Below, piece by piece: positions 2 through 23,292 of a DNA stretch of 23,863 nucleotides. Position numbers and translations under genes: made by a program. Source of the DNA: Promethearchaeota archaeon (GTDB taxonomy: Archaea > Asgardarchaeota > Lokiarchaeia > Sigyniarchaeales > SOKP01); assembly GCA_016930515.1 (NCBI GenBank), contig JAFGGO010000034.1, positions 1 to 23,863 on the forward strand, given 5' to 3'. How positions within the stretch are numbered: the first letter of the stretch is position 1; each line of letters begins with the position of its first letter. The notes beneath the pieces are model-generated. The model was not told where the DNA came from. It worked only from the letters and a program-made list of their open reading frames with translations, and did no database searches.

Positions 2-232
2 AAAATTGATTGTATAGGTGGGTTTAAATTAGAGGAGCCCGATTCAGGAATATCTTATAATCATATCTTTGATGATTTAATATCTAAAAACTCAACAATA
101 TTTCATATTGAGCTTTCTAAAGTCATTGAAGATAGTAAAATTGAACTAATAAAAAACAACTTCACTCAATTCATAGAAAAGCAGAGAATTGATCTTAAAT
201 TATTGGAGGAAGATATTAGTTATAATGAATGA
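2..232 (+). CDS. atpE: A/V-type ATP synthase subunit E, C-terminal part (5' truncated by window edge; not in ORF track)
   Basis: Frame 2 is open from base 2: KIDCIGGFKLEEPDSGISYNHIFDDLI...DISYNE*, ending in TGA at 230-232. The IGGF..i.y...d.l pattern fits the subunit E C-terminal domain, and the stop overlaps the ATG of subunit A. Confidence 0.75.
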   Translation, partial: KIDCIGGFKLEEPDSGISYNHIFDDLISKNSTIFHIELSKVIEDSKIELIKNNFTQFIEKQRIDLKLLEEDISYNE

Positions 233-3200
233 GCAGAAAAAACAAAAGCAACCAACAGGATATATTTCGGCAATCTATGGTTCTTTGATAGAGGTCAAAG
301 GAATTGAAAAAGATGTACAACTCCATAACATGATTGAAGTTGTCGAACATAAAATAATTGGGGAAGTAATTCAAATTTATTCAGATCATATTATTGCACA
401 GTGTTTTGAAAACACGAATCAATTAAGACTCAATAATAAAGTGATTGATTTAAGAGAACCAATATCCATGGAATTAGGTCCAGGCTTGTTATCAAATATT
501 TTCGATGGAATTCAAAGACCTTTAGAAAAGATTTACTCAAATTTAGACAAGAGTGGTTTTTTAGAACGAGGAACAAAAATACCCTCATTATCAAGAACTA
601 AAAAATGGCGTTTTGTTCCTACTAAATCAAAAAACGATAAAGTTAACGAAGGAGATATTATTGGCATTGTTCAAGAAACCACATTAATTCAACATAAAAT
701 AATGGTTCCTCCAGGAGTTTCAGGGACGCTTTCTTTCATAATAGAAGAAGGTGATTATACTGTTATTGATGATATTTACACGATTAAAAATTCAAAACAA
801 GAACTAACTTTTGGAATGCTTCAAAAATGGCCTATATACAAAAATAGACCTTTTAAAGAGTCTAAAAAATCAAAAGAACCTTTAATTACGGGTCTAAGAG
901 TAATAGACCTTTTATTTCCACTAGCAAAAGGAGGCACAGTGGCTGTTCCAGGAGGGTTTGGAACTGGTAAATGTGTATCTCCTGATACACCCATATTATT
1001 ATCAAATGGTTTAAGGAAAAACATTAAAGAGTTATTTGATAGCTACAAAAAAAAAAATGGAAAAATAGAATTTAAGACAAAAGAAGAATCTCTGATAAAA
1101 ATAGAGAGTAATTTAGAAGTTTTATCATTAAATTCAACAAGTTTTAAGAAAAAGAGTGCAACCCATATTTATAAGGGAAAAACTGACAAAATTATAACGA
1201 TTAAAACAAGGACAGGAAGATCATTAAAGCTGACGCCCATTCATAAATTACACATTTTTAACGGAATTGAAATTGTAAAAAAAACAGCAAATGAGATAGA
1301 AATAGGAGATTATATTATAGTTCCAAGAAAAATCACTATTCCAGGGGAAGATTTCTTTTTTAATGCTTATGATATAGATGACTCTCTTCTTATCGTAGAA
1401 GACAAACCCTTAAAAGAAGTGAAAAAAATTATAATTACTCTCCAAGAAAAATATGGGATTCAGGAGTTAGCTAAAGAGCTTAATGTGTCGGTTTCTGAAT
1501 TAAATAATTATAAAAATGGTTTAAAGGAACCTCCTCTGAAGTTTGTTAAAGACATAATAAATATTTCTAAATCACAAGAAATACCTATCAATCTTCTAAA
1601 AGCAGAGCATCAATCTGAACCTTTTTACCTTCCTAAAAAATTAACTAAAGAAATGGCGGAATGGTTAGGATTATTTATAGCTGATGGTCATATTAAAGGA
1701 AAATATGATGGTATATATTTTTATAATACATCAAATCAAATTTTAACCCGATTTAAAGAGCTAACACAAAAAGTCTTTGGTTTTAATACAAAATTCGGTC
1801 AAGATTCTGAAGATAGAACACCTTTTATGTTCTTAAGAAATACTGCATTCAAAAAATTTCTTTATTGGTTAGGTATTCCGAAAAAAAACAAAACACATGA
1901 AGTTAAAATTCCAGATTGTATTTTAAAATCATCAGAGAAAATCCTTATACATTTTTTAAATGGTTATTTTGCTGGTGATGGGTGGTTTTCCAAATATACA
2001 GTTGGTTTTTCTACTGCGAGTAAAAAATTACACTCAGATCTAACATATCTTCTTTCAAGACTTGGTATTCTTTATAGAGTATCTGAAAAGAAAAATTCCT
2101 TCTATATTGAACTTGAAGGTAAACTATCTGAAAATCTTGGAAATTTACTTAAAAAATCAAATGTCTATGTTTATGAGAAATTAATTCCCTTATTCAATTA
2201 TTGCGATCAAAATATTAAACATTTTGACGGACTTGAGGATATCCCCTTAGATATTAGTATTTTAAAGAATTTGAAAACTCAAGGAAAAGATCATCTTGGA
2301 CATGATATATTTAAAAAACATTTAGGGATAAGAATTGATAATTATATTAACCAGAAGCAAAAACCTTCATTAACAACACTTAGAAAAATTTATGATCTTA
2401 TTGAGGAATTTGGACAAAATAATGATATAAATCTAAGAAAACACTTACATCACATTATTTCACTTAATGAAAATCTTTTTTTTGATCAGGTGAGAGAAAA
2501 AGAAGAACAAACAAAAAAAACCAATGTTTACGATCTTACTATAGAAGATTATCATAATTTCATTGGAGGAGAACAACCCATAGTCCTACATAATACGGTT
2601 ATTCAACAGAGCTTAGCTAAATGGAGCGATGCTGACATCATAATATACTGTGGGGTCGGAGAACGAGGAAACGAAATTGCTGATGTACTTCATCAATTTA
2701 GAAAAATAATTGATCCAAAAAGTGGTCGACCTCTTTTAGAAAGAATTGTAATAATTGCAAACACATCAAATATGCCCGTTTCGGCGAGGGAAGCGAGCAT
2801 GTTCTCTGGTGTTACTATTGGAGAATATTACAGAGATATGGGATATAATGTCGCCGTTCTTGCTGATAGTACCTCACGATGGGCCGAAGCGTTAAGAGAA
2901 ATTTCAGGATTACTAGAAGAAATGCCCGCTGAGGAGGGATATCCCGCCTATTTACCATCAAAACTCTCGAGTTTTTACGAAAGAGCTGGTATCGTATTAA
3001 CCCTCGGAGATAGCGATGATGGAACTCATAATCGAATCGGATCTGTGTCAATTATTGGATCGGTTTCTCCTCCATCTGGAGATTTTAGCGAACCAGTTAC
3101 AGCAACAACCAAGCGTTTTGTTCAGGCGTTTTGGGCATTAGATGCATCGCTCGCTTATTCAAAGCATTATCCGGCGATAAACTGGCTAAATTCATATTCA

Positions 3201-3704
3201 AATTATCCCGATTATATTTTTGAATGGTGGAAGGAAAGGGATGTTTATTGGGAAGAATTAAAAGATATAACATGGAATAATTGTCGAATTCAGGTAAATC
3301 AGCTTTTATCAAAAGAGAGCGAATTAAAAAACATAACACAACTTATAGGCAAAGAAAATTTACCAGAAGATCAACAATTAATTATATTTATCGCAGAATT
3401 AATTAGAAATAGCTTTTTGATTCAAAGTGCTTTTGATAATATCGATTGTTTTACTCAAGTCGAGAAATTGATTTGTCACATCAAATTAATTTTGCTTCTC
3501 TATAAAGAAAGTATAGAACTTCTAAATAAAGGATTTATAATTGAAGATATTACGAAACTTAATGTTATAAACGATATATTAAGAATAAGTCAATCGATCG
3601 CTAACGACCAATATGAGAAAATAATCGATATCAAAAATAAACTATTAAAAGAAATTAATCAAATGAAATCAATGTTTGGGGGAAGCCGTGAGCGTCTTTT
3701 ATAA
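225..3704 (+). CDS. atpA: A/V-type ATP synthase catalytic subunit A, intein-containing precursor
   Basis: Motifs ELGPGLL..IFDGIQRPL, Walker A PGGFGTGK/T (split by the intein), GVGERGNE, ANTSNMPVSAREAS, ADSTSRWAEALREISG, EEGYPAYL, VSPPSGDFSEPVT. ATG at 225 preferred over TTG at 189 because it overlaps the atpE stop. Confidence 0.97.
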   Translation: MNEQKKQKQPTGYISAIYGSLIEVKGIEKDVQLHNMIEVVEHKIIGEVIQIYSDHIIAQCFENTNQLRLNNKVIDLREPISMELGPGLLSNIFDGIQRPLEKIYSNLDKSGFLERGTKIPSLSRTKKWRFVPTKSKNDKVNEGDIIGIVQETTLIQHKIMVPPGVSGTLSFIIEEGDYTVIDDIYTIKNSKQELTFGMLQKWPIYKNRPFKESKKSKEPLITGLRVIDLLFPLAKGGTVAVPGGFGTGKCVSPDTPILLSNGLRKNIKELFDSYKKKNGKIEFKTKEESLIKIESNLEVLSLNSTSFKKKSATHIYKGKTDKIITIKTRTGRSLKLTPIHKLHIFNGIEIVKKTANEIEIGDYIIVPRKITIPGEDFFFNAYDIDDSLLIVEDKPLKEVKKIIITLQEKYGIQELAKELNVSVSELNNYKNGLKEPPLKFVKDIINISKSQEIPINLLKAEHQSEPFYLPKKLTKEMAEWLGLFIADGHIKGKYDGIYFYNTSNQILTRFKELTQKVFGFNTKFGQDSEDRTPFMFLRNTAFKKFLYWLGIPKKNKTHEVKIPDCILKSSEKILIHFLNGYFAGDGWFSKYTVGFSTASKKLHSDLTYLLSRLGILYRVSEKKNSFYIELEGKLSENLGNLLKKSNVYVYEKLIPLFNYCDQNIKHFDGLEDIPLDISILKNLKTQGKDHLGHDIFKKHLGIRIDNYINQKQKPSLTTLRKIYDLIEEFGQNNDINLRKHLHHIISLNENLFFDQVREKEEQTKKTNVYDLTIEDYHNFIGGEQPIVLHNTVIQQSLAKWSDADIIIYCGVGERGNEIADVLHQFRKIIDPKSGRPLLERIVIIANTSNMPVSAREASMFSGVTIGEYYRDMGYNVAVLADSTSRWAEALREISGLLEEMPAEEGYPAYLPSKLSSFYERAGIVLTLGDSDDGTHNRIGSVSIIGSVSPPSGDFSEPVTATTKRFVQAFWALDASLAYSKHYPAINWLNSYSNYPDYIFEWWKERDVYWEELKDITWNNCRIQVNQLLSKESELKNITQLIGKENLPEDQQLIIFIAELIRNSFLIQSAFDNIDCFTQVEKLICHIKLILLLYKESIELLNKGFIIEDITKLNVINDILRISQSIANDQYEKIIDIKNKLLKEINQMKSMFGGSRERLL
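972..2594 (+). mobile_element. Intein with LAGLIDADG homing endonuclease at the VMA-b (P-loop) site of subunit A, 541 aa
   Basis: N-junction GTGK|CVSPDT (Cys1 at 972); block B LKLTPIHKL; LAGLIDADG motifs AEWLGLFIADG (1656-1688) and FLNGYFAGDG (1953-1982); blocks F/G VYDLTIEDYHNF...IVLHN|T with +1 Thr at 2595. Excision restores GFGTGKTVIQQ. Confidence 0.96.
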
Positions 3705-16036: not shown

Positions 16037-17404
16037 TTAAAATTCACTTATGAGCTTTTCGAGGTGAGATATCATCTCTTTTGCTTTATTCGTATCATCA
16101 GATTCCCCCGAAAGGAGGAGAGCCGTTCTATATAGTGCGACTTTCAGCGAAACGCTAGTACCATCCTCTGAGATTATTTTTACTTCGTTCAATATATCGT
16201 GATACTTATATCCGTTTTTGAGAACAACTCTCCTTATTTCATCATGGATGTTGTCGATTACTTCTTGGGAAACCGTAATTGATTTATTGATCTTTTTTCC
16301 TTTTGGAAAACCTCTTGTGAGAGAACTAATTAAATCCTCTTGAAGGCTCATGATTTCGAGAATTTTAAGCAATATGAAGTTTCCATCGCTAATGGGAGCT
16401 AATTGTGGAAAATAATACTTTAAAGTATCTGCTGCGGCAAAACAAGCTCTCTCTTCCCTGATTTGCCTTGAAATTTCCCCTGGTTCGTTTTTCACTTGTT
16501 TAGTGACGAAACCACTCTCTTCGATAAACCTTTTTGCAACGGGAGATATCGAAGGCGTGGTAATGATGCAACCAGGCTTAGATTTTTGGATTCTTTCGTC
16601 GCAACACACGAATAGCATCAATAAATCTTCGAAGCTTATTTCTAATCCATTCTCATCAATGACTAATATTCGAGAACCATCAATATCAAAACAAACACCC
16701 AGATGACTATTGGAAGCCTTAACAATATCAGCAACATTTCTAATAGTACTAATATTTGGAATTGGTGTCCCGCTTCTTTGTCTATAGTGCGTGTTTAACG
16801 CAATCGTTTCAACACCAAGGTCGTTGAATAAAATCGGTGAGACTCGCCCCGTAGGAGAATAGGAACAATCCACTACTATCTTGAGGTTGGCTTTTCCAAT
16901 TTTTTTCTTGTTGACGAATTGTTCTAAAGACTTAATATATACATCTAAAGTTTGTGGAATTGCGTTTATCTGACCAATCTCGTTAGGGTCTACTCTTCTG
17001 ACACCCGTAGCTTGAACATTCACGATTTTTTGGATTTCTGAGCGTCCTAATTCAATACCACCAGCATCAACAAATCGTAGATAAATTCCTTCTGCAGTGT
17101 GTCCACCAGAAAAAAAAACACCTCCGCTTGCACCAAATCTTCTTATGGTGAATTGAAGCATGGGAAATGTACAATCGGATAGGTTTAAAAGATTCACTCC
17201 CGTAGACATAACACCCGCTGTAAACGCTCTTTTTAACATCCTACTATCGTTGTGATAATCCCTACCCATAACTATAGATTCTCCTGGGTTAAAGGTGGTA
17301 CCAAACATTGAACCCAACGAAGCTGAGATTTCGGGAGTAAAAACAAAATTAGCTTTTCCTTTAAATCGACCGTCCTGTATCAAATTATTAAATTCTTGAA
17401 CCAT
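16037..17404 (-). CDS. Alpha-D-phosphohexomutase (PMM/PGM) family protein with degenerate active site
   Basis: Family landmarks TPE...LG..FG, GRD....SRML..A..AG..S.G, KIVVDC, CFDIDGSR and DG. The catalytic TASHNP loop reads SGGHTA. Confidence 0.88.
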   Translation of the reverse strand: MVQEFNNLIQDGRFKGKANFVFTPEISASLGSMFGTTFNPGESIVMGRDYHNDSRMLKRAFTAGVMSTGVNLLNLSDCTFPMLQFTIRRFGASGGVFFSGGHTAEGIYLRFVDAGGIELGRSEIQKIVNVQATGVRRVDPNEIGQINAIPQTLDVYIKSLEQFVNKKKIGKANLKIVVDCSYSPTGRVSPILFNDLGVETIALNTHYRQRSGTPIPNISTIRNVADIVKASNSHLGVCFDIDGSRILVIDENGLEISFEDLLMLFVCCDERIQKSKPGCIITTPSISPVAKRFIEESGFVTKQVKNEPGEISRQIREERACFAAADTLKYYFPQLAPISDGNFILLKILEIMSLQEDLISSLTRGFPKGKKINKSITVSQEVIDNIHDEIRRVVLKNGYKYHDILNEVKIISEDGTSVSLKVALYRTALLLSGESDDTNKAKEMISHLEKLISEF

Positions 17405-17573
17405 TTTAACTTATGAATAAATGCATGATATTAAGTAGATATCTTATATTAATTACCATAGAGACGATAATATATATTTCTTCTCATAATATCTCTTATA
17501 ATTTTGAATTGATGGATAGTAAAATAAGCATGGTAGAGTTTAAATCTCAAAAAGTAATATTAGTTATATTAAA

Positions 17574-19292
17574 ATGAACGAAAAAATATTAGGTAAATTT
17601 GCAATTGTTCTCCATTCTCACTTGCCCTGGGTAATAAATCATGGTGTTTGGCCGCATGGTACTTCATGGGTTTACGAAGCCGCTGCAGAGACGTATTTAC
17701 CATTGTTGATGGAATTATATAAGCTAGTAGACGATGGTTATCACCCAAGATTGACGATTGGTCTTACACCTGTTCTTTGCGAGATGCTGCGGCATCCCTC
17801 GTTCGTTCAAGGGTTTTTAGGATATATGGACGAAAAAGTCGGTGCCGCTTTAAACGATTACGACAATTTCACGGAAAATAATTACGAAGAAGGCAGGATA
17901 AATTTAACGAAATGGTGGGAAGAGTTTTACGAACGAATGAGAGATATATTCCTCCATCGATTTAATAGGGATATTGTAGGTGCATTTAAATCGTTACAAG
18001 ATCAGGGTCTTATAGACATCATTACTTGCGGAGCGACTCACGGATATAGTCCCTTGCTTTCCAAGGATACTTCAATAGACGCACAATTTAAAACAGCAGT
18101 TGATAACTATAAAAAACATTTTGGTATGGCTCCAACAGGTGTCTGGCTCCCCGAATGTGCTTATCGACCCGGATATAGGTGGAAAAATCCCATTACTAAG
18201 GAAGAGTACGACAGACCTGGAATAGAATATTTTCTCGCAAAAAACGGTTTGAAATATTTCTTTATCGACACTTCAATGTTGTTAGGGGGTAAATCTCAAG
18301 GAGTATACGCTGCGAGATTTCCACTCTTAAAGGAGTTATGGAAACAATTCGAATCACAATACGAAGAAATTCCCACCTCTTTTGAGAAATCACAATACGA
18401 ATCCTACTTAACTAGTACAGCACCTTCTACTCCGGCTCCAGTCGGTTTTTTTACTCGAGATGAAAAGACGGGTATTGTAGTCTGGAGCGGAGAACACGGA
18501 TATCCTGGCTGCTCGGAATACTTAGATTTTCACAAAAAGCACTATCCAGGAGGACTTCGTTATTGGAAAGTAACCGGTCCGAAAGTAGACCTAGGCGCTA
18601 AAATGTTATACTGGCCAGATGATATACCCCGAAAATTAGACGAAAATGCCGGACATTATGTTAACCTCATAAAAGACATTTTAAGGGATTACAAGAACAA
18701 GTTTGGAACCTCCGGAATAATCGTAGCTCCTTACGATTGCGAACTTTTCGGTCATTGGTGGTTCGAAGGAACTTGGTGGCTGGCGAGGGTATTTAGATGG
18801 TTAGAAGACGATCCTGAAGTGGAGCTCACAAACACGAGAATCTATATGGAGCACAATCCCCCTAATAAGGTTGTTTCTCCTATAGAGGGTTCTTGGGGAC
18901 AAGGAAGCGGGCATTGGGTTTGGTTGAACGAATGGACTACTTGGACTTGGAAAAATATTTATGAATGCGAGGCAAAAAGCGAAGAAATTGTTGCACGACA
19001 TAAAAATTCTTCTGATCAAAACATGCAAAAGATTTTAAGACAACTGGTGAGGGAATTATTACTCTTGGAGAGTTCAGACTGGCAATTTTTAATATCTACT
19101 TGGTCTGCTAGAGATTACGCAGAGAATCGAGTTACCTTGCACTACGAAAACTTTAACCGCTTATACGATATGGCACAGAAGTATGGAAATGGACAATATG
19201 TTGATGAAGGTGAATGGCACTTCCTTGGCGTACTGGAAGCAAATGAGGGATTATTTGCTGATATTGATTTAGAACCGTTTGCGAAAAAATAA
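17574..19292 (+). CDS. GH57 1,4-alpha-glucan branching enzyme (with DUF1957-type C-terminal domain)
   Basis: LHSHLPWV, EAAAETYLPLL, CGATHGY.PLL, WLPEC (nucleophile Glu), PYDCELFGHWWFEG (acid/base Asp), SWG.G, RELLLLESSDWQF. Confidence 0.94.
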   Translation: MNEKILGKFAIVLHSHLPWVINHGVWPHGTSWVYEAAAETYLPLLMELYKLVDDGYHPRLTIGLTPVLCEMLRHPSFVQGFLGYMDEKVGAALNDYDNFTENNYEEGRINLTKWWEEFYERMRDIFLHRFNRDIVGAFKSLQDQGLIDIITCGATHGYSPLLSKDTSIDAQFKTAVDNYKKHFGMAPTGVWLPECAYRPGYRWKNPITKEEYDRPGIEYFLAKNGLKYFFIDTSMLLGGKSQGVYAARFPLLKELWKQFESQYEEIPTSFEKSQYESYLTSTAPSTPAPVGFFTRDEKTGIVVWSGEHGYPGCSEYLDFHKKHYPGGLRYWKVTGPKVDLGAKMLYWPDDIPRKLDENAGHYVNLIKDILRDYKNKFGTSGIIVAPYDCELFGHWWFEGTWWLARVFRWLEDDPEVELTNTRIYMEHNPPNKVVSPIEGSWGQGSGHWVWLNEWTTWTWKNIYECEAKSEEIVARHKNSSDQNMQKILRQLVRELLLLESSDWQFLISTWSARDYAENRVTLHYENFNRLYDMAQKYGNGQYVDEGEWHFLGVLEANEGLFADIDLEPFAKK

Positions 19293-19360
19293 TTTCTTTT
19301 TCATTTATTATATAGTAAAACTTTGAAAAATAATTCCTTAAATTAATTAGGAAAACACTT
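19293..19360. terminator. Putative bidirectional terminator region between convergent genes
   Basis: T-rich tract right after the GH57 stop, plus an imperfect dyad TTCCT-TAAATTAATT-AGGAA. Confidence 0.3.
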
Positions 19361-20512
19361 TTAGAGTGAGATTCCTAGATCTATGGTTTTATCTATTATT
19401 TGCGAATTATCGTTAATCTTAGAAAAAGGTGCTACAATTGCTTTCTTAAGCACTACATTAGCTCCAATTTGGCAGTTATTACAAATTATGGATTCTTCTA
19501 TGCGACATCCGGGTCCAATCGAAACCTCGTCCCATATTACGCTCCTATCTATAATACTATCTTCCCCAACAGATACATTACTACCTATGGATGTTAAATT
19601 TTTGATCTTAATCCTGTTGCTTAATCTTACATTTTCTCCAAAACAAGTTGGTCTATCTATGATAATATTTTGTCCCGAATCAATAATACCCATTACAAAT
19701 ATATCGTCGTAATTAGTACCATTAGGCGTGACAGGCCACGAGTGCAACCTTAAGAGGTCCCAATTAGCCCATAAATAGGTTTGCGCGTTTCCACAGTCCA
19801 TCCAATAATAATTCTTAACAAATCCATACAAGTCGTATTCGTTATCCAATAAAAAAGGAAAGACTTCTCCTCCAAAATCCATAAGGTTCTGATTTTCTTC
19901 GAGGATACTCGTAATTTTGTTATTAAAAGTATATATACCCGTGTTAATAATATTCGTATGGAGGAAAAGATCAGCCCTTTGAGCCATGCTGCTTAAATAT
20001 AATTCCATAGGTGCAGGTTTTTCTAAAAAAAGGTAAATCTTTCTCTTATCGTCCAATAACACGACACCGTATTGAGAAGTGTGGCTTTCCACAGTTTTCA
20101 TTGATATTGTTGCAATTCCACGCTTTTTCAAGTGAAAATTCATAAATTTTTTCATCGGTAAGTTGGTCACGATGTCCGCCATTGACACGACCACATTCTT
20201 CGAATCAATATGATCTTTTAATAACCAAAATGCTTCAGCAGTTCCCTTGCTGTCGTGAATGCGCCATTCCAATTCCACATCTCCTAGCTTATCTTGCGTC
20301 CAAGTTTTTTTTAAATGCTCTTCAATTTTATCACCCATATAAGCAAGTGCGAGGGTAATATGTTTGATGTCAGCATAAATTAGATGCGCAATCGAATAAT
20401 CAACCATCGGTTTGTTTGTAACTTTTACTAAAGGTTTTGGAATCGTAGCTGTAAGCGGCATGAGCCGAGATCCTTTTCCTCCCGCTAAGATTATGGCACT
20501 CCATTCACGCAT
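19361..20512 (-). CDS. Sugar-1-phosphate nucleotidyltransferase (NDP-sugar synthase; GlgC/mannose-1-P guanylyltransferase-like) with left-handed beta-helix
   Basis: ILAGGKGSRLMPLT..IPKPL, GTA, YGVV, FLEKP, NTGIY, DFGGEVFP, YWMDCG and C-terminal hexapeptide repeats. Confidence 0.92.
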   Translation of the reverse strand: MREWSAIILAGGKGSRLMPLTATIPKPLVKVTNKPMVDYSIAHLIYADIKHITLALAYMGDKIEEHLKKTWTQDKLGDVELEWRIHDSKGTAEAFWLLKDHIDSKNVVVSMADIVTNLPMKKFMNFHLKKRGIATISMKTVESHTSQYGVVLLDDKRKIYLFLEKPAPMELYLSSMAQRADLFLHTNIINTGIYTFNNKITSILEENQNLMDFGGEVFPFLLDNEYDLYGFVKNYYWMDCGNAQTYLWANWDLLRLHSWPVTPNGTNYDDIFVMGIIDSGQNIIIDRPTCFGENVRLSNRIKIKNLTSIGSNVSVGEDSIIDRSVIWDEVSIGPGCRIEESIICNNCQIGANVVLKKAIVAPFSKINDNSQIIDKTIDLGISL

Positions 20513-20694: not shown

Positions 20695-21954
20695 TTATTT
20701 GTTCAATAAATTTCGAATTTCGATTGCTGTATGTTCAGGTAACTTTCTTGCAACCCGCATATCATCTGCCATTTCAGCACCACCGATTATTTCGTGGGGA
20801 ATTATATCTCCAAAAAGGTGAAAATCCGCATCGTATCCGTATGGACAGCAATTAAAGATGATATTTCGATTTCTTTCAACTCCTAATTCGTCCAAAGCAC
20901 TAAAAATGAGTTTTAGGGTTTTTGCCAAGTCCTGAATTTGATTAGGTTTTAAATTGGCAAACCTTCTTATGTGTTCGTGAGGGTAAAAACGCAGATGATA
21001 GTTCCTAACTGGGCTTCCCGTGGCGTAATATGTCCAGTATTTAGTTTTCAAAACGATGCGGTTGTCCTCGTCGTGAGATGTATGACATAATCGGCATTCT
21101 TTCATTTCTTCAAAAGCCTGTAAATAGCCTCCAAGCCGAGATCCATGTCCATCTCCGTTTAAATCGATGTAAACCTGACTATGGATACGAGGTTGACTTC
21201 CTCCTACTTTTCGACCTATATTAAAAAATGGTGAAATTAATATATCGTAATAATCGTTATTAATAGCCTCCTCTACTGAATAAAGTATTGCTGCCTTCAT
21301 TGAAAGAAAGATCCCTGCTAAAACATCCTCGGGAATAAGATCAAAACATAAGGCGGGATAAAAATTTCTTGAGATCGTCAATAAATTTATTCCTAATGAT
21401 AATTTAGAATTGAAAGGAAGTTCTTTTTCAAGCGTGTTTTTTAACTCTGGATCAATAACACGAATCATGGAAGGATATCGATTGATTAAGGTTACTGCTT
21501 TGACAGAAGGATCTAGAACGTCTATCTTTCGAGGTGTTGAAGTAAATGGATTATCTCTCCTAATCTCATCTTCGGTTATTATGATCGTGGAACCGTCCCT
21601 CAGAAGAGATCCATCTTTATTGTAAATTGGCTTACCCTCCGTTATTGATGTAAAGATATCTGAAATTCCCATAATTTTTGAACAATCTTGATCTTCTTTT
21701 AAATCATCTCCGTAATCATGTGGACGTTCACTTCGAATGGGGGATATATACGAAAATCTTCCCGAATATCGAATCTCCTTTCGAAGTCCAAACCCCTTTT
21801 TTTTTATCACAACGGTAGATAATGGATCCCAGCGTTTGATAGGTACTTCATTAATTGATTTAAAATTTTCCTTATTTATTATCCCCCATTCCATGAATTT
21901 AGGAAATGGTTCTTCAGGGTTCTTATCAATATATTCATTCGTAATTTTTATCAC
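20695..21954 (-). CDS. GalT-like / HIT-superfamily nucleotidyltransferase (Gal-1-P uridylyltransferase or ADP-glucose phosphorylase-like)
   Basis: S..RSERP, NRYP, F.N.G...GGSQPRIHSQ (equivalent to HxHxQ), CRLC, a second HIT-like half (P..H...F..L, FHL, GG.EM). GTG start. Confidence 0.8.
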   Translation of the reverse strand: MIKITNEYIDKNPEEPFPKFMEWGIINKENFKSINEVPIKRWDPLSTVVIKKKGFGLRKEIRYSGRFSYISPIRSERPHDYGDDLKEDQDCSKIMGISDIFTSITEGKPIYNKDGSLLRDGSTIIITEDEIRRDNPFTSTPRKIDVLDPSVKAVTLINRYPSMIRVIDPELKNTLEKELPFNSKLSLGINLLTISRNFYPALCFDLIPEDVLAGIFLSMKAAILYSVEEAINNDYYDILISPFFNIGRKVGGSQPRIHSQVYIDLNGDGHGSRLGGYLQAFEEMKECRLCHTSHDEDNRIVLKTKYWTYYATGSPVRNYHLRFYPHEHIRRFANLKPNQIQDLAKTLKLIFSALDELGVERNRNIIFNCCPYGYDADFHLFGDIIPHEIIGGAEMADDMRVARKLPEHTAIEIRNLLNK

Positions 21955-21971: not shown

Positions 21972-22862
21972 CTAATTTTTTTGAATAGTTATCAGTTCCA
22001 AAACAATTTCAAAAATACCGCTAATATTTGCTATGGAATTCATGACATGTTCGAGAACTTTTTTTGAAGTGTTAATATAGGCTTCGTAAATGCATTTTGA
22101 ACCTTCTTGACAAATACCAGTGGTAAAAATTAAAGTGAGGTTCTTACTTTCGTGTTTCGACAAGATTTCAGAAATTTGTTGAATTATTGGTAATGTCATT
22201 TTTTCCCCAAAAATTACCCTTAAGCTAAACACCTCGTCGGCGTTTATTGGGATCATGTCAATTTTAACTACGTTTCCCCGAGTTCTATAAACCAAAAAAT
22301 AATTTTTCTTGGAAACGTCACCAATTTGTTGGATGAGTCCTGTTGGCAAGTCTATTTGGTGATTCTTAGATATATTAAATGAGTTAACGAGTTGTCCATG
22401 TGTTTCAATTGGTTTTATCGAGAGTGACTTGTCTACATTTTTAAGCTCATTTTTCAAGAATCGATAATAGGTTTTAATATCGTCTGCTTCATCTTCTCGT
22501 GATATTGATCCCCTATAAAAAGCTTTGTAAATATCCGTTATTGCAGATATTTTTTCTTTAAACGCCGTGAGCACACTTTCGTAGACAAAATAATCTGGTT
22601 CTTCTTCGGAACATATAGCAGATATCATGATAGTCTCTTGCCGACCTCGAGCCCATTTGGAAAAGATGTTAAAAACCAAGTTGGCCGTTTTCAGTTCTGG
22701 TGAAAAATTATGGATGAAAAAACCCTCGTCGTCTCTATCTAATAAGTTTTTGATATTATCGATGTTTTCGGATGCTGAACCAGATCTACTAATTAAATCT
22801 AAAGGAATTGTTAAAAATACTCGAGGACCTAATCTCGTGTCAAAATAGCTAAGAACCAACAT
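21972..22862 (-). CDS. Hypothetical protein: putative NPRL2/uDENN-type longin domain fused to AbrB-like and ACT-like domains
   Basis: 296-aa ORF. N-terminal LVLSYFDTRLGPRVFLTIP; central NISKNHQIDLPTGLIQQIG followed by two beta-like strands; C-terminal beta-alpha-beta-beta-alpha-beta hydrophobic pattern. The ORF is secure, the domain calls are inferred. Confidence 0.6.
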   Translation of the reverse strand: MLVLSYFDTRLGPRVFLTIPLDLISRSGSASENIDNIKNLLDRDDEGFFIHNFSPELKTANLVFNIFSKWARGRQETIMISAICSEEEPDYFVYESVLTAFKEKISAITDIYKAFYRGSISREDEADDIKTYYRFLKNELKNVDKSLSIKPIETHGQLVNSFNISKNHQIDLPTGLIQQIGDVSKKNYFLVYRTRGNVVKIDMIPINADEVFSLRVIFGEKMTLPIIQQISEILSKHESKNLTLIFTTGICQEGSKCIYEAYINTSKKVLEHVMNSIANISGIFEIVLELITIQKN

Positions 22863-22948
22863 TTAAGGCATATATTCTCGTAGATATTACACTATAAAGA
22901 TTAATAAGGTAGTTTGCTAATAAATAATTATTCATTAAAATTTATAAT

Positions 22949-22961
22949 AAAAAAAAAGGGG
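22949..22961 (-). terminator. Putative oligo-T terminator of the RHH gene
   Basis: Minus strand reads CCCC followed by T9, about 40 nt after the stop at 23002. Confidence 0.45.
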
Positions 22962-23001
22962 AATTACTCTTAATTTGTTTACCAACTTTGGGATGATAGA
23001 C

Positions 23002-23292
23002 TTAAGCTTCCCTTAAAATTTTAAAGGTTCTTAATTCCGTTATTGGCTCGTCCCCATCTCCCTTGCTTTCAATCGGAATTTTTACGAAATTTTTATCGTC
23101 AAAATCTTCGAATCCTTGTTCTTCAAGGGTGTATTTAGACATTTTATGGACGGATTTAAACTCTCTTAAGAGAAAATCCCGGACTGCACATCGAATAAGC
23201 TCAGATCTGGAAGGATAGAGGCCGTCTTCTCCTACCAACTTCTTGATTGCTTCGATGTACGATTCTGGTACATTTACTGTTACAATTTTCAT
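23002..23292 (-). CDS. Ribbon-helix-helix (CopG/MetJ/Arc-type) DNA-binding protein
   Basis: MKIVTVNVPESYIEAIKKLV...GLYPSRSELIR.AVRDFL is a classic RHH pattern. ATG at 23292 preferred over the track start at 23379. Confidence 0.88.
   Translation of the reverse strand: MKIVTVNVPESYIEAIKKLVGEDGLYPSRSELIRCAVRDFLLREFKSVHKMSKYTLEEQGFEDFDDKNFVKIPIESKGDGDEPITELRTFKILREA

What the first reader, a model, noticed from the sequence alone, without database searches (positions are those of the whole stretch)
21972..22862. Putative longin (NPRL2/uDENN-like)-AbrB-ACT fusion: candidate archaeal nutrient sensor
Seen: aa 1-20 LVLSYFDTRLGPRVFLTIP fit the hydrophobic-strand-F[DH]xxxGPxxxxxxP start of NPRL2/uDENN longin domains; aa 162-205 (NISKNHQIDLPTGLIQQIG...FLVYRTRGNVVKIDMIP) resemble an AbrB swapped hairpin; aa 210-292 show an ACT-like pattern with a CQEGSKC hairpin. 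Known: longin/DENN modules regulate small GTPases (GATOR1, folliculin), ACT domains bind amino acids (including CASTOR1 upstream of GATOR), and Asgard archaea encode longin proteins. Inference: one polypeptide linking metabolite sensing, possible DNA binding and GTPase-type signalling.
Basis: inference. Interest (0 to 1): 0.78.

Follow-up and report, generated by a model that had tools for sequence, protein, structure and literature searches.

The report
Asgard longin fused to AbrB-ACT sensor module
This conserved Lokiarchaeial gene joins a folliculin/NPRL2-type longin domain, which in eukaryotes switches off small GTPases, to a reworked copy of a small archaeal AbrB-plus-ACT regulator carrying an invariant cysteine pair. 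That gives a testable candidate for a signal-gated GTPase regulator, but every line of evidence is computational.

Summary
The ORF at 21972-22862 (-) is real. About 50 full-length homologues (40-88% identity) exist, all in Loki-type Asgard MAGs.

- **aa 1-150:** a longin fold. Its best structural matches are chains of the folliculin-FNIP2 complex, NPRL2 and a Lokiarchaeal longin crystal structure (Z 12.3-13.3). The Gly12-Pro13 motif and Arg72-Gly73 are invariant across 56 paralogous domains.
- **aa ~153-207:** a divergent AbrB/MazE-like domain.
- **aa 208-296:** an ACT/NikR-like ferredoxin fold.

The C-terminal half is homologous (hhalign E 9e-24) to a stand-alone ~140-aa protein family found in 238 of 301 Asgard genomes. 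That family in turn resembles archaeal MazE+ACT small proteins in profile and structure. Both share an invariant TGxCx5CxYExY hairpin.

The fused form occurs only in part of one order. It keeps company with small GTPase genes of three different kinds. In this lineage it sits 17 nt upstream of a GalT-like gene in a glycogen/NDP-sugar cluster.

Likeliest function: a signal-gated regulator (GAP-type) of an Arf/Rag/Rab-like GTPase. The ligand, the client GTPase and DNA binding are all unknown. NPRL2-like Asgard longins are published. This fusion was not found in the literature I searched, but this scan has already seen it in other genomes.

The parts
21972..22862 (-). Whole gene: 296 codons plus TAG stop, ATG start at 22862
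   Evidence: family of ~50 colinear homologues
22413..22862 (-). aa 1-150: longin domain of the FLCN/NPRL2 (GAP) type
   Evidence: AF2 topology bb-a-bbb-aa. VIA-align Z 13.3 (6nzd_H), 12.5 (9o5a_H, NPRL2), 12.3 (8yqg_B, Loki longin). The domain recurs in 275 proteins fused to PAS, Arf GTPase, histidine kinase or TPR.
22824..22829 (-). Gly12-Pro13, the 'GP motif' at the start of strand 2
   Evidence: Invariant in 56 paralogous domains. Aligned to NPRL2 G20-P21 in the weak PDB profile hit. The motif is described in PMC12290439.
22647..22649 (-). Arg72 (WARG loop between strands 4 and 5), candidate arginine finger
   Evidence: R72 and G73 are invariant in 56 domains. Linear mapping of the VIA alignment (model 1-151 to NPRL2 9-143) puts it within about 2 residues of NPRL2 Arg78. 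Structural equivalence was not checked residue by residue.
22242..22409 (-). aa ~152-207: divergent AbrB/MazE/SpoVT-like domain (b-b-a-b-b), with a family-specific basic RTRG hairpin and a Lys-rich b1-b2 loop
   Evidence: hhalign against the own genome's AbrB domains: alone 14.65 (1 of 100 shuffles reach it); merged with the stand-alone family 24.6 (0 of 150 shuffles, max 12.2). Atlas structural match to a MazE+ACT cluster. Residue counts.
21975..22241 (-). aa 208-296: ACT/NikR-C-like ferredoxin fold (b-a-bb-a-b)
   Evidence: Model of aa 141-296: pLDDT 88, pTM 0.79. Z 12.2 to NikR 2ca9_A (81 aa, 2.0 A), and Z 10-11.6 to MgtC-C and to the ACT domains of homoserine dehydrogenase, AHAS, RelA and aspartokinase.
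22092..22112 (-). Cys251-x5-Cys257 on the b2-b3 hairpin, inside the signature TGxCx5CxYExY
   Evidence: Both Cys are >=90% conserved in the fused family and invariant in the 141-296 set and in the stand-alone family.
22863..23001 (-). 139-nt AT-rich spacer upstream of the gene: an oligo-T run after the RHH gene, then a TTTATA-like box about 35 nt before the ATG
   Evidence: Read from the sequence. That it is a promoter or terminator is inference only.
23002..23292 (-). Upstream neighbour: 96-aa ribbon-helix-helix protein, conserved next to the gene in either orientation
   Evidence: PF01402 E 1.9e-7. Present in 13 of 20 loci.
20695..21954 (-). Downstream neighbour 17 nt away, probably co-transcribed: 419-aa GalT/HIT-like protein
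   Evidence: HIT E 2.6e-4. Weak GalT NF008724. Spacer has no T-run. Directly downstream in 11 of 20 loci.
16037..20512 (.). Rest of the conserved cluster: NDP-sugar pyrophosphorylase (19361-20512 -), GH57 branching enzyme (17574-19292 +), phosphoglucomutase-like (16037-17404 -)

Best explanation
The gene encodes a three-module signalling protein restricted to part of one Lokiarchaeial order.

Module 1 (aa 1-150) is a longin domain of the folliculin/NPRL2/SMCR8 class. It carries that class's Gly-Pro motif and a strictly conserved arginine on the strand 4-5 loop.

Modules 2 and 3 (aa ~153-296) were acquired as one piece. They derive from an Asgard-wide stand-alone ~140-aa protein that is itself a divergent AbrB/MazE + ACT small regulator.

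Proposed mechanism (inferred, not shown):
- The AbrB-ACT tail dimerises the protein and acts as the input. It senses a small molecule, a metal or the redox state, probably through the invariant Cys251/Cys257 hairpin rather than the classical ACT glycine loop.
- This sets the geometry or availability of the paired longin domains.
- The longin domains act on an Arf/Rag/Rab-like small GTPase, most likely as a GAP that uses Arg72.

In this lineage the protein is probably co-transcribed with a GalT-like enzyme inside a glycogen/NDP-sugar cluster. The signal may therefore concern carbon storage.
For: **Shown**
- Real, conserved gene.
- Longin fold whose best matches are GAP-complex longins and a Loki longin.
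- GP and R72-G73 invariant across 56 paralogous domains. The GP motif plus arginine finger is the published hallmark of FLCN, NPRL2, SMCR8 and C9orf72 and of one class of Asgard longins (PMC12290439; Liu et al. bioRxiv 10.1101/2020.10.19.343400).
- The same longin domain is fused directly to Arf-like GTPase domains elsewhere (P0087). Two of six paralogues in this genome are such fusions. It is also fused to PAS and histidine-kinase modules, so it behaves as an output module of signalling proteins.
- The C-terminal half is homologous to the stand-alone family (E 9e-24) and shares its invariant Cys pair.
- AbrB and ACT assignments.

**Neighbourhood**
- 12 of 20 loci carry a divergent V4R / Arf-like GTPase / 470-aa protein unit upstream.
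- Genus g4 (4 loci) has a Rab/Ras-like GTPase 270-620 nt downstream.
- Family f2 has a different Rab-like GTPase, only 33% identical, 73 nt downstream in L050.
- These are three different GTPase associations.
- The genome holds about 44 small-GTPase matches in 4.0 Mb, so about 13% of random 12-kb windows would contain one.
Against: - No biochemical evidence of any kind.
- By sequence the longin is not a significant match to any eukaryotic family: no Pfam hit, NPRL2 at E 0.59.
- The equivalence of Arg72 to NPRL2 Arg78 or FLCN Arg164 rests on linear mapping and a published pattern, not on a residue-level superposition.
- Eukaryotic GAP longins work as heterodimers with a second longin and carry DENN or NPRL2-type C-terminal domains. 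No such partner or domain is seen here.
- In the window's own genome the conserved upstream GTPase lies on another contig behind a receiver-domain gene. Adjacency therefore does not hold for this organism.
- The upstream GTPase family is Asgard-wide, whereas the fused protein is confined to one order. That GTPase does not depend on it.
- Synteny is inherited, so the 20 loci are not independent observations.
- The ACT glycine loop is not strictly conserved, and nothing identifies a ligand.
Confidence: 0.5

Rival explanations
1. It is mainly a one-component transcription regulator. The AbrB-like dimer binds DNA, the ACT-like domain senses the effector, and together they control the adjacent GalT-like, NDP-sugar and glycogen genes. 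The longin domain serves as a docking site through which a GTPase or another partner modulates transcription.
For: - AbrB+ACT (PRK08577-like) and RHH+ACT (NikR) are classical small-regulator layouts.
- The gene lies with an RHH regulator at the head of a conserved metabolic cluster.
- The fused family has its own conserved basic residues in the AbrB-like part: R193 38/39, R195 33/39, K200 37/39, plus a Lys-rich b1-b2 loop.
Against: - Canonical AbrB DNA-contact positions are not kept. The residue after the conserved Pro is K in 8/12 genomic AbrB domains but in only 7/39 fused proteins. The Arg four residues on (7/12) is always hydrophobic here.
- The Pro itself is Ser in 25/39.
- In genus g4 and family f2 the metabolic genes are absent and a GTPase gene follows instead.
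Confidence: 0.25
2. It is a regulatory or scaffolding subunit of the downstream GalT-like nucleotidyltransferase or the glycogen machinery, with no GTPase involved. Longin and ACT would both act as protein- or metabolite-binding modules.
For: A 17-nt spacer without a T-run to the GalT-like gene. The same order is seen in 11 of 20 loci, followed by NDP-sugar pyrophosphorylase, GH57 branching enzyme and PGM.
Against: The link is missing in genus g4 and family f2, where the family is otherwise intact. GP and Arg are invariant across paralogues with quite different partners, which argues for a shared GTPase-directed role for the longin.
Confidence: 0.1
3. The tail is only a dimerisation device. 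The cysteine pair is structural (a zinc site or a disulphide staple), and the protein is a constitutive longin adaptor with no sensing role.
For: Both AbrB and ACT folds are obligate dimer formers in known proteins (established knowledge). The classical ACT ligand loop is not strictly conserved.
Against: The TGxCx5CxYExY hairpin stays invariant over the whole Asgard phylum in both stand-alone and fused forms. That is more constraint than a plain dimer interface usually shows. This does not exclude a structural metal.
Confidence: 0.15

Closest known systems
Eukaryotic GAP-type longin subunits: NPRL2 (GATOR1), FLCN (with FNIP), SMCR8/C9orf72
   Same: Longin fold with the best structural scores (Z 12.5-13.3). 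GP motif at the start of strand 2 and a conserved Arg on the strand 4-5 loop (PMC12290439).
   Different: No significant sequence similarity. No DENN or NPRL2-type C-terminal domain; the tail is AbrB-ACT instead. No second longin partner identified. No TOR pathway in the host. GAP activity untested.
Asgard 'NPRL2-like' / 'FLCN-SMCR8-type' longin proteins (Liu et al. 2020/2021; Traffic 2025, PMC12290439; PDB 8yqg Lokiarchaeal Roadblock-Longin)
   Same: Same domain class and same phylum. The same habit of fusing the longin to prokaryotic signalling modules (PAS, kinase, REC, GTPase).
   Different: The partner module here is an AbrB-ACT unit with a Cys pair. I did not find this described: 0 papers hold longin + ACT domain + Asgard. 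Distribution is limited to part of one order.
Archaeal AbrB/MazE + ACT small proteins (NCBIfam NF006352 / PRK08577; Pfam PF04014 + PF01842); this genome's own copy at G000:C148
   Same: Same two-domain order and size as the C-terminal half. Structural match TM 0.59/0.65 over 128 residues. The stand-alone Asgard relatives hit NF006352 end to end (E 5e-7).
   Different: Neither Pfam model sees the window protein. The AbrB K/R contact positions are lost. An invariant Cys pair has been gained. Function of PRK08577 proteins is itself unknown.
NikR (RHH + ACT-like nickel-binding domain)
   Same: Best solved-structure match to aa 210-292 (Z 12.2-12.3, rmsd 1.6-2.0 A, 14-15% identity). A small DNA-binding-type domain followed by a ferredoxin-like sensor. 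The conserved Cys pair lies on the b2-b3 hairpin with the same 6-residue spacing as NikR's His89/Cys95 nickel ligands (the NikR numbering is from my own knowledge).
   Different: NikR's other His ligands are not present. An AbrB-like domain replaces the RHH. No evidence for metal binding.
CASTOR1 (tandem ACT, arginine sensor upstream of GATOR)
   Same: An ACT-type fold functionally tied to a longin GAP system. This is an analogy only.
   Different: CASTOR1 is a separate protein that acts on GATOR2. No homology beyond the fold, and no sign of amino-acid binding here.

Membership tests
GAP-type longin (FLCN / NPRL2 / SMCR8 class) | Longin fold (b-b-a-b-b-b-a-a) | tested here: met
   AF2 topology. 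Z 13.3, 12.5 and 12.3 to FLCN-FNIP2 complex chain, NPRL2 and Loki longin, with 130-145 residues aligned at 2.7-3.4 A.
GAP-type longin (FLCN / NPRL2 / SMCR8 class) | Gly-Pro motif at the b1-b2 junction | tested here: met
   G12-P13 invariant in 56 domains. Aligned with NPRL2 G20-P21. Motif defined in PMC12290439.
GAP-type longin (FLCN / NPRL2 / SMCR8 class) | Catalytic arginine finger at the structurally equivalent position | tested here: inconclusive
   R72 is invariant and sits on the b4-b5 loop within about 2 residues of NPRL2 R78 by linear mapping. No residue-level superposition was available.
GAP-type longin (FLCN / NPRL2 / SMCR8 class) | Significant sequence match to the family models | tested here: not met
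   No Pfam or NCBIfam hit. NPRL2 is the only PDB hit, but at E 0.59.
GAP-type longin (FLCN / NPRL2 / SMCR8 class) | C-terminal DENN or NPRL2-specific domain, and heterodimer with a second longin subunit | tested here: not met
   The C-terminal half is AbrB-ACT. NPRL2 and FLCN are absent from the top matches of the 141-296 model. No partner longin was found in the neighbourhood: the N-domain of the neighbouring GTPase against the longin profile gives E 0.1.
GAP-type longin (FLCN / NPRL2 / SMCR8 class) | GAP activity on a Rag/Arf-type GTPase | not testable with these tools
   Needs biochemistry.
AbrB / MazE / SpoVT swapped-hairpin domain | Match to Pfam PF04014 | tested here: not met
   Not listed for the protein at E<=1. 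A six-frame PF04014 search of the genome finds 16 sites but not this gene.
AbrB / MazE / SpoVT swapped-hairpin domain | Profile-profile and structural similarity over the whole ~50-aa domain | tested here: met
   Stand-alone relatives score 29.7 (P 4e-6, 51 of 53 columns). Merged with the window family the score is 24.6, against column shuffles of mean 7.9, sd 1.5, max 12.2. The window family alone is weak at 14.65 (1 of 100 shuffles). Atlas cluster with PF04014 in 56% of members: TM 0.59/0.65.
AbrB / MazE / SpoVT swapped-hairpin domain | Conserved basic DNA-contact residues around the I-P-K-x-x-R helix | tested here: not met
   Pro is kept in 10/39 (Ser in 25/39). Lys after Pro in 7/39. The Arg position is hydrophobic in all.
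AbrB / MazE / SpoVT swapped-hairpin domain | Interleaved homodimer | not tested
ACT domain | b-a-b-b-a-b ferredoxin-like fold of about 80 aa | tested here: met
   Z 9.5-12.1 to the ACT domains of PGDH, homoserine dehydrogenase, AHAS small subunit, RelA and aspartokinase. Foldseek E 1e-4 to 1e-3. Ribosomal protein S6 scores equally well, so the fold alone is generic.
ACT domain | Match to Pfam ACT models; glycine in the b1-a1 ligand loop | tested here: inconclusive
   No Pfam ACT hit. F218 is invariant, but the following Gly is replaced in several members. Relatives of relatives do carry PF01842.
NikR C-terminal metal-binding domain | His/His/Cys/His' nickel site | tested here: inconclusive
   Fold match Z 12.2-12.3. 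Two conserved Cys have NikR-like spacing on the same hairpin, but the His ligands are not conserved. No residue-level alignment was available.
NF006352 / PRK08577 (archaeal AbrB+ACT small protein) | Score over the curated cut-off (140 bits) | tested here: not met
   The window protein has no hit. The stand-alone relatives reach 30 bits, E 5e-7, colinear over 130 residues. This is related, not a member.

The most novel reading that the evidence does not exclude
A single polypeptide in which a redox-, metal- or Fe-S-sensing Cys-pair ACT module, or a metabolite-sensing one, directly gates an NPRL2/folliculin-type GTPase-activating longin. This would be an archaeal one-protein counterpart of the sensor-plus-GATOR1 or folliculin logic, wired in this lineage to carbon-storage genes. 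It would mean signal-gated longin GAPs predate eukaryotes.
Probability: 0.2. Interest if true: 0.8.

Novelty: new variant of a known kind. Interest (0 to 1): 0.55.

Why it matters
Rag/Arf GTPases and their longin GAPs (GATOR1, folliculin, C9orf72-SMCR8) sit at the centre of eukaryotic nutrient signalling. Where their regulation came from is an open question. Asgard longins with the GAP motifs are published, but none has a known input or client.

This family offers:
- a defined input-like module (AbrB-ACT with an invariant Cys pair);
- a short list of candidate client GTPases from conserved neighbourhoods;
- point mutants to test (R72, G12/P13, C251/C257).

It also uncovers an uncharacterised ~140-aa AbrB-ACT-like protein family present in most Asgard genomes.

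Tried and rejected
- **Complex prediction.** Longin domain (aa 1-150, alignment A1) with the genome's orthologue of the conserved neighbour GTPase (P0203, alignment A6), with GTP and Mg. Score 0.18 and 0.16 against a mark of 0.32. The tool's verdict was 'no answer', so controls were not run. This counts neither for nor against binding.
- **Is the neighbour GTPase's N-terminal ~160 aa a second, non-catalytic longin (FNIP/NPRL3-like)?** hhalign against the longin profile gave E 0.1 over 31 columns. Not supported, and no fold was available.
- **Does the C-terminal half resemble NPRL2's own C-terminal domain?** Foldseek aligned the whole protein to NPRL2 (296 columns, TM 0.35, rmsd 20 A). The isolated 141-296 model gives no NPRL2 or FLCN match in the top 50. 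Rejected.
- **Sequence searches without a hit.** Pfam and NCBIfam on the protein. PDB profile searches with A1, A2 and A7 gave only chance-level hits apart from NPRL2.
- **CCCH zinc-finger resemblance of the Cys hairpin** (2cqe, E 0.36). Treated as chance.
- The ESM Atlas feature search on the conserved 470-aa neighbour gave nothing.
- **Literature.** No paper held 'AbrB + ACT domain + archaea' or 'longin + ACT domain + Asgard'.
Full report
**The gene**

The window is a whole 23.9-kb contig (C83) of a 4.0-Mb, 94%-complete Asgard MAG. The ORF at 21972-22862 (-) encodes 296 aa. A word-indexed search found 51 proteins at E<=1e-43. Most are 276-303 aa and colinear, at 40-88% identity. Every named one comes from Promethearchaeota/Lokiarchaeota-type MAGs. 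The alignment (A1) has 58% mean column identity. Neither Pfam nor NCBIfam sees anything significant.

**N-terminal domain**

- The AF2 model (pLDDT 82) gives b-b-a-b-b-b-a-a for aa 1-150, which is the longin topology.
- VIA-align ranks chains of the folliculin-FNIP2 complex first: 6nzd_H Z 13.3, 8dhb_J 13.3, 6ulg_L 13.2.
- Next come NPRL2 of GATOR1 (9o5a_H Z 12.5, 130 aa, 2.8 A) and the crystal structure of a Lokiarchaeal longin (8yqg_B, Z 12.3).
- Foldseek's top hit for the whole protein is also NPRL2.
- An exhaustive phmmer search found 275 proteins sharing aa 2-140. Many are long multidomain proteins in which this domain precedes PAS arrays, histidine-kinase ATPase domains, TPRs or an Arf-like GTPase.
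- Across 56 such domains only F7, G12, P13, R72 and G73 are invariant.
- A profile of the first ~90 residues retrieves just two PDB sequences out of 177,635. Both are NPRL2, aligned 'LsyFdtiiGPkiflkaP' to 'FSEFHPTLGPKITYQVP'. At E 0.59 this is suggestive, not significant.
- The GP motif next to an arginine finger has been published as the hallmark that sets FLCN, NPRL2, SMCR8 and C9orf72 apart from other longins. The same paper reports it for a class of Asgard longins (PMC12290439).
- Liu et al. had already described 'NPRL2-like longin' domains fused to two-component modules in Asgard archaea.
- This domain is therefore a member of a known Asgard class.
- That Arg72 equals NPRL2 Arg78 follows from linear mapping of the alignments (offset 6-8). 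I could not confirm it residue by residue.

**C-terminal half**

- Modelled alone, aa 141-296 folds into one compact unit (pLDDT 88, pTM 0.79).
- Residues 210-295 are a b-a-b-b-a-b ferredoxin fold. The best matches are NikR's C-terminal domain (2ca9_A Z 12.2, 81 aa, 2.0 A), the MgtC C-domain, and many ACT domains: PGDH, homoserine dehydrogenase, AHAS small subunit, RelA and aspartokinase. Ribosomal protein S6 scores alongside them.
- A six-frame survey of 301 Asgard genomes with the 141-296 profile was decisive. 238 genomes have a match. Only 19 matches (E<=1e-37), in ORFs mostly of 290-320 aa, are the fused form. They fall in part of the window's own family and in one sister family of the same order.
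- All other matches are stand-alone ORFs of about 140-155 aa covering profile positions ~17-154.
- These stand-alone proteins (alignment A7; Heimdall-, Hod-, Thor- and Loki-labelled; no Pfam domain) are clearly homologous to the window's C-terminal half: hhalign probability 99.6%, E 9e-24, 128 columns.
- Both share the signature [ST]TGxCx5CxYExY with both cysteines invariant.

**The AbrB question**

- Pfam PF04014 does not detect the window protein.
- The window family alone scores weakly against a profile of twelve AbrB/MazE domains from the same genome: 14.65, reached by 1 of 100 column shuffles.
- The stand-alone family's N-terminal 55 residues align over 51 of 53 AbrB columns with score 29.7 (P 4e-6).
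- The two families merged score 24.6, against shuffles of 7.9+-1.5 with maximum 12.2 (0 of 150).
- The stand-alone proteins also hit NCBIfam NF006352 (PRK08577) end to end at E 5e-7.
- The genome's own PRK08577-like protein (G000:C148, 138 aa) carries PF04014 above its cut-off, plus PF01842 ACT at E 3.7e-5.
- A shape search of the ESM Atlas with the 141-296 model returns, in order: the protein's own cluster; two stand-alone Asgard clusters (TM 0.68-0.75); an archaeal ACT cluster (TM 0.62/0.69); and an archaeal cluster in which 56% of members carry MazE_antitoxin and 33% carry ACT (TM 0.59/0.65 over 128 residues).
- The tail is therefore a diverged AbrB+ACT unit taken up whole.
- The canonical AbrB basic positions (Lys after the conserved Pro, Arg four residues on) are not kept. 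The fused family has its own conserved R193, R195 and K200 and a Lys-rich b1-b2 loop. DNA binding therefore stays open.

**Neighbourhood**

I compared the window and 19 related loci by phmmer with the window's and L003's genes.

- In family f1 the usual order is V4R< Arf-like GTPase< 470-aa protein< RHH(either way) TARGET>. The V4R/GTPase/470-aa unit is present in 12 loci.
- Downstream follow GalT-like> NDP-sugar pyrophosphorylase> with a GH57 branching enzyme and PGM. The GalT-like gene is directly downstream in 11 loci, including the window. There the spacer is 17 nt without a T-run.
- In genus g4 the downstream gene is instead a 181-aa Ras/Rab-like GTPase.
- In family f2 it is another Rab-like GTPase, 73 nt away in L050. 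It is only 33% identical to the g4 one, so it is probably a separate association.
- The upstream GTPase has an intact P-loop, DxPGQ and NKxD motifs and an extra ~160-aa N-domain. Its family spans Asgard phyla.
- In the window's own genome the 470-aa gene ends 15 nt from the end of contig C119. That fits a join with the window's end. The GTPase-V4R pair, however, sits on contig C167 behind a receiver-domain gene. Here, as in its closest relative L001, the GTPase is not adjacent.
- The genome has six GP-longin paralogues. Two of them are fused to GTPase domains.

**Reading**

The function is not established. I favour a signal-gated regulator of a small GTPase, probably a GAP. The reasons are the invariant GP/Arg signature, the direct longin-GTPase fusions of paralogues, the use of this longin as an output of PAS, kinase and REC proteins, and three different GTPase neighbourhoods. 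The input is more likely the invariant Cys hairpin (metal, Fe-S or redox) than a classical ACT amino-acid site. 'Nutrient sensor' is unsupported except by the link to the glycogen/NDP-sugar cluster in this lineage. Rivals are a DNA-binding regulator, an enzyme partner, and a plain dimerisation tail.

**Novelty**

NPRL2/FLCN-type Asgard longins and their fusion to signalling modules are published. I found no paper with this AbrB-ACT fusion. This scan has already met the same family on other genomes and reached very similar conclusions (e1-5608237, e1-5565336, e1-5415123, e1-5636911). My tests were run independently and agree with them.

Noticed in passing
L024:1414-1875 (G000:C70), L025-L029, L032, L033; alignment A7: An uncharacterised stand-alone ~140-aa protein family: an AbrB-like N-domain plus an ACT-like C-domain with an invariant TGxCx5CxYExY. 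It matched in 238 of 301 Asgard genomes, with up to 5 copies per genome in one family (f9). No Pfam domain and no name. It is the evident donor of the window protein's tail.
   Followed up: partly
window 189-3704 (+): The A-type ATP synthase catalytic subunit A is interrupted by an intein with a LAGLIDADG homing-endonuclease domain (Pfam Intein_splicing, LAGLIDADG_3).
   Followed up: no
window 20695-21954 (-): The 419-aa GalT/HIT-like protein is seen only weakly by the HIT and GalT models. It has a CxxC and a RIHSQ motif. It is conserved directly downstream of the longin gene in 11 of 20 loci and duplicated in tandem in L003 (6906-8189 and 8412-9626).
   Followed up: partly
L054 / G000:C119:18860-20224 (-); L003:3423-4826: A conserved 462-485-aa protein with no family match lies between the Arf-like GTPase and the RHH gene in 13 loci. 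In this genome it ends 15 nt from a contig end, which suggests contigs C119 and C83 (the window) are neighbours.
   Followed up: partly
L007 (G000:C167:1283-2296 and 2473-3069): This genome's orthologue of the conserved neighbour GTPase (N-domain + Arf-like G domain, 337 aa) sits with a V4R protein. It is preceded by a 128-aa receiver-domain gene instead of the usual 470-aa gene.
   Followed up: partly
L023:5032-6012: In one MAG labelled Hermodarchaeota the longin-AbrB-ACT gene is split into two ORFs (187 and 103 aa called). This is a frameshift, a pseudogene or an assembly error.
   Followed up: no
G000:C74:2843-2971, C168:89340-89477, C68:14773-14898, C111:58340-58471, C33:2535-2660: Five AbrB/MazE domains in this genome lie in ORFs of 300-358 aa, so AbrB is fused to other unexamined modules as well.
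   Followed up: no
G000:C101:9420-10307 (994-aa ORF) and G000:C40:17461-18264 (652-aa ORF): Two paralogues carry the same GP/Arg longin domain fused directly to an Arf-like GTPase domain.
   Followed up: partly
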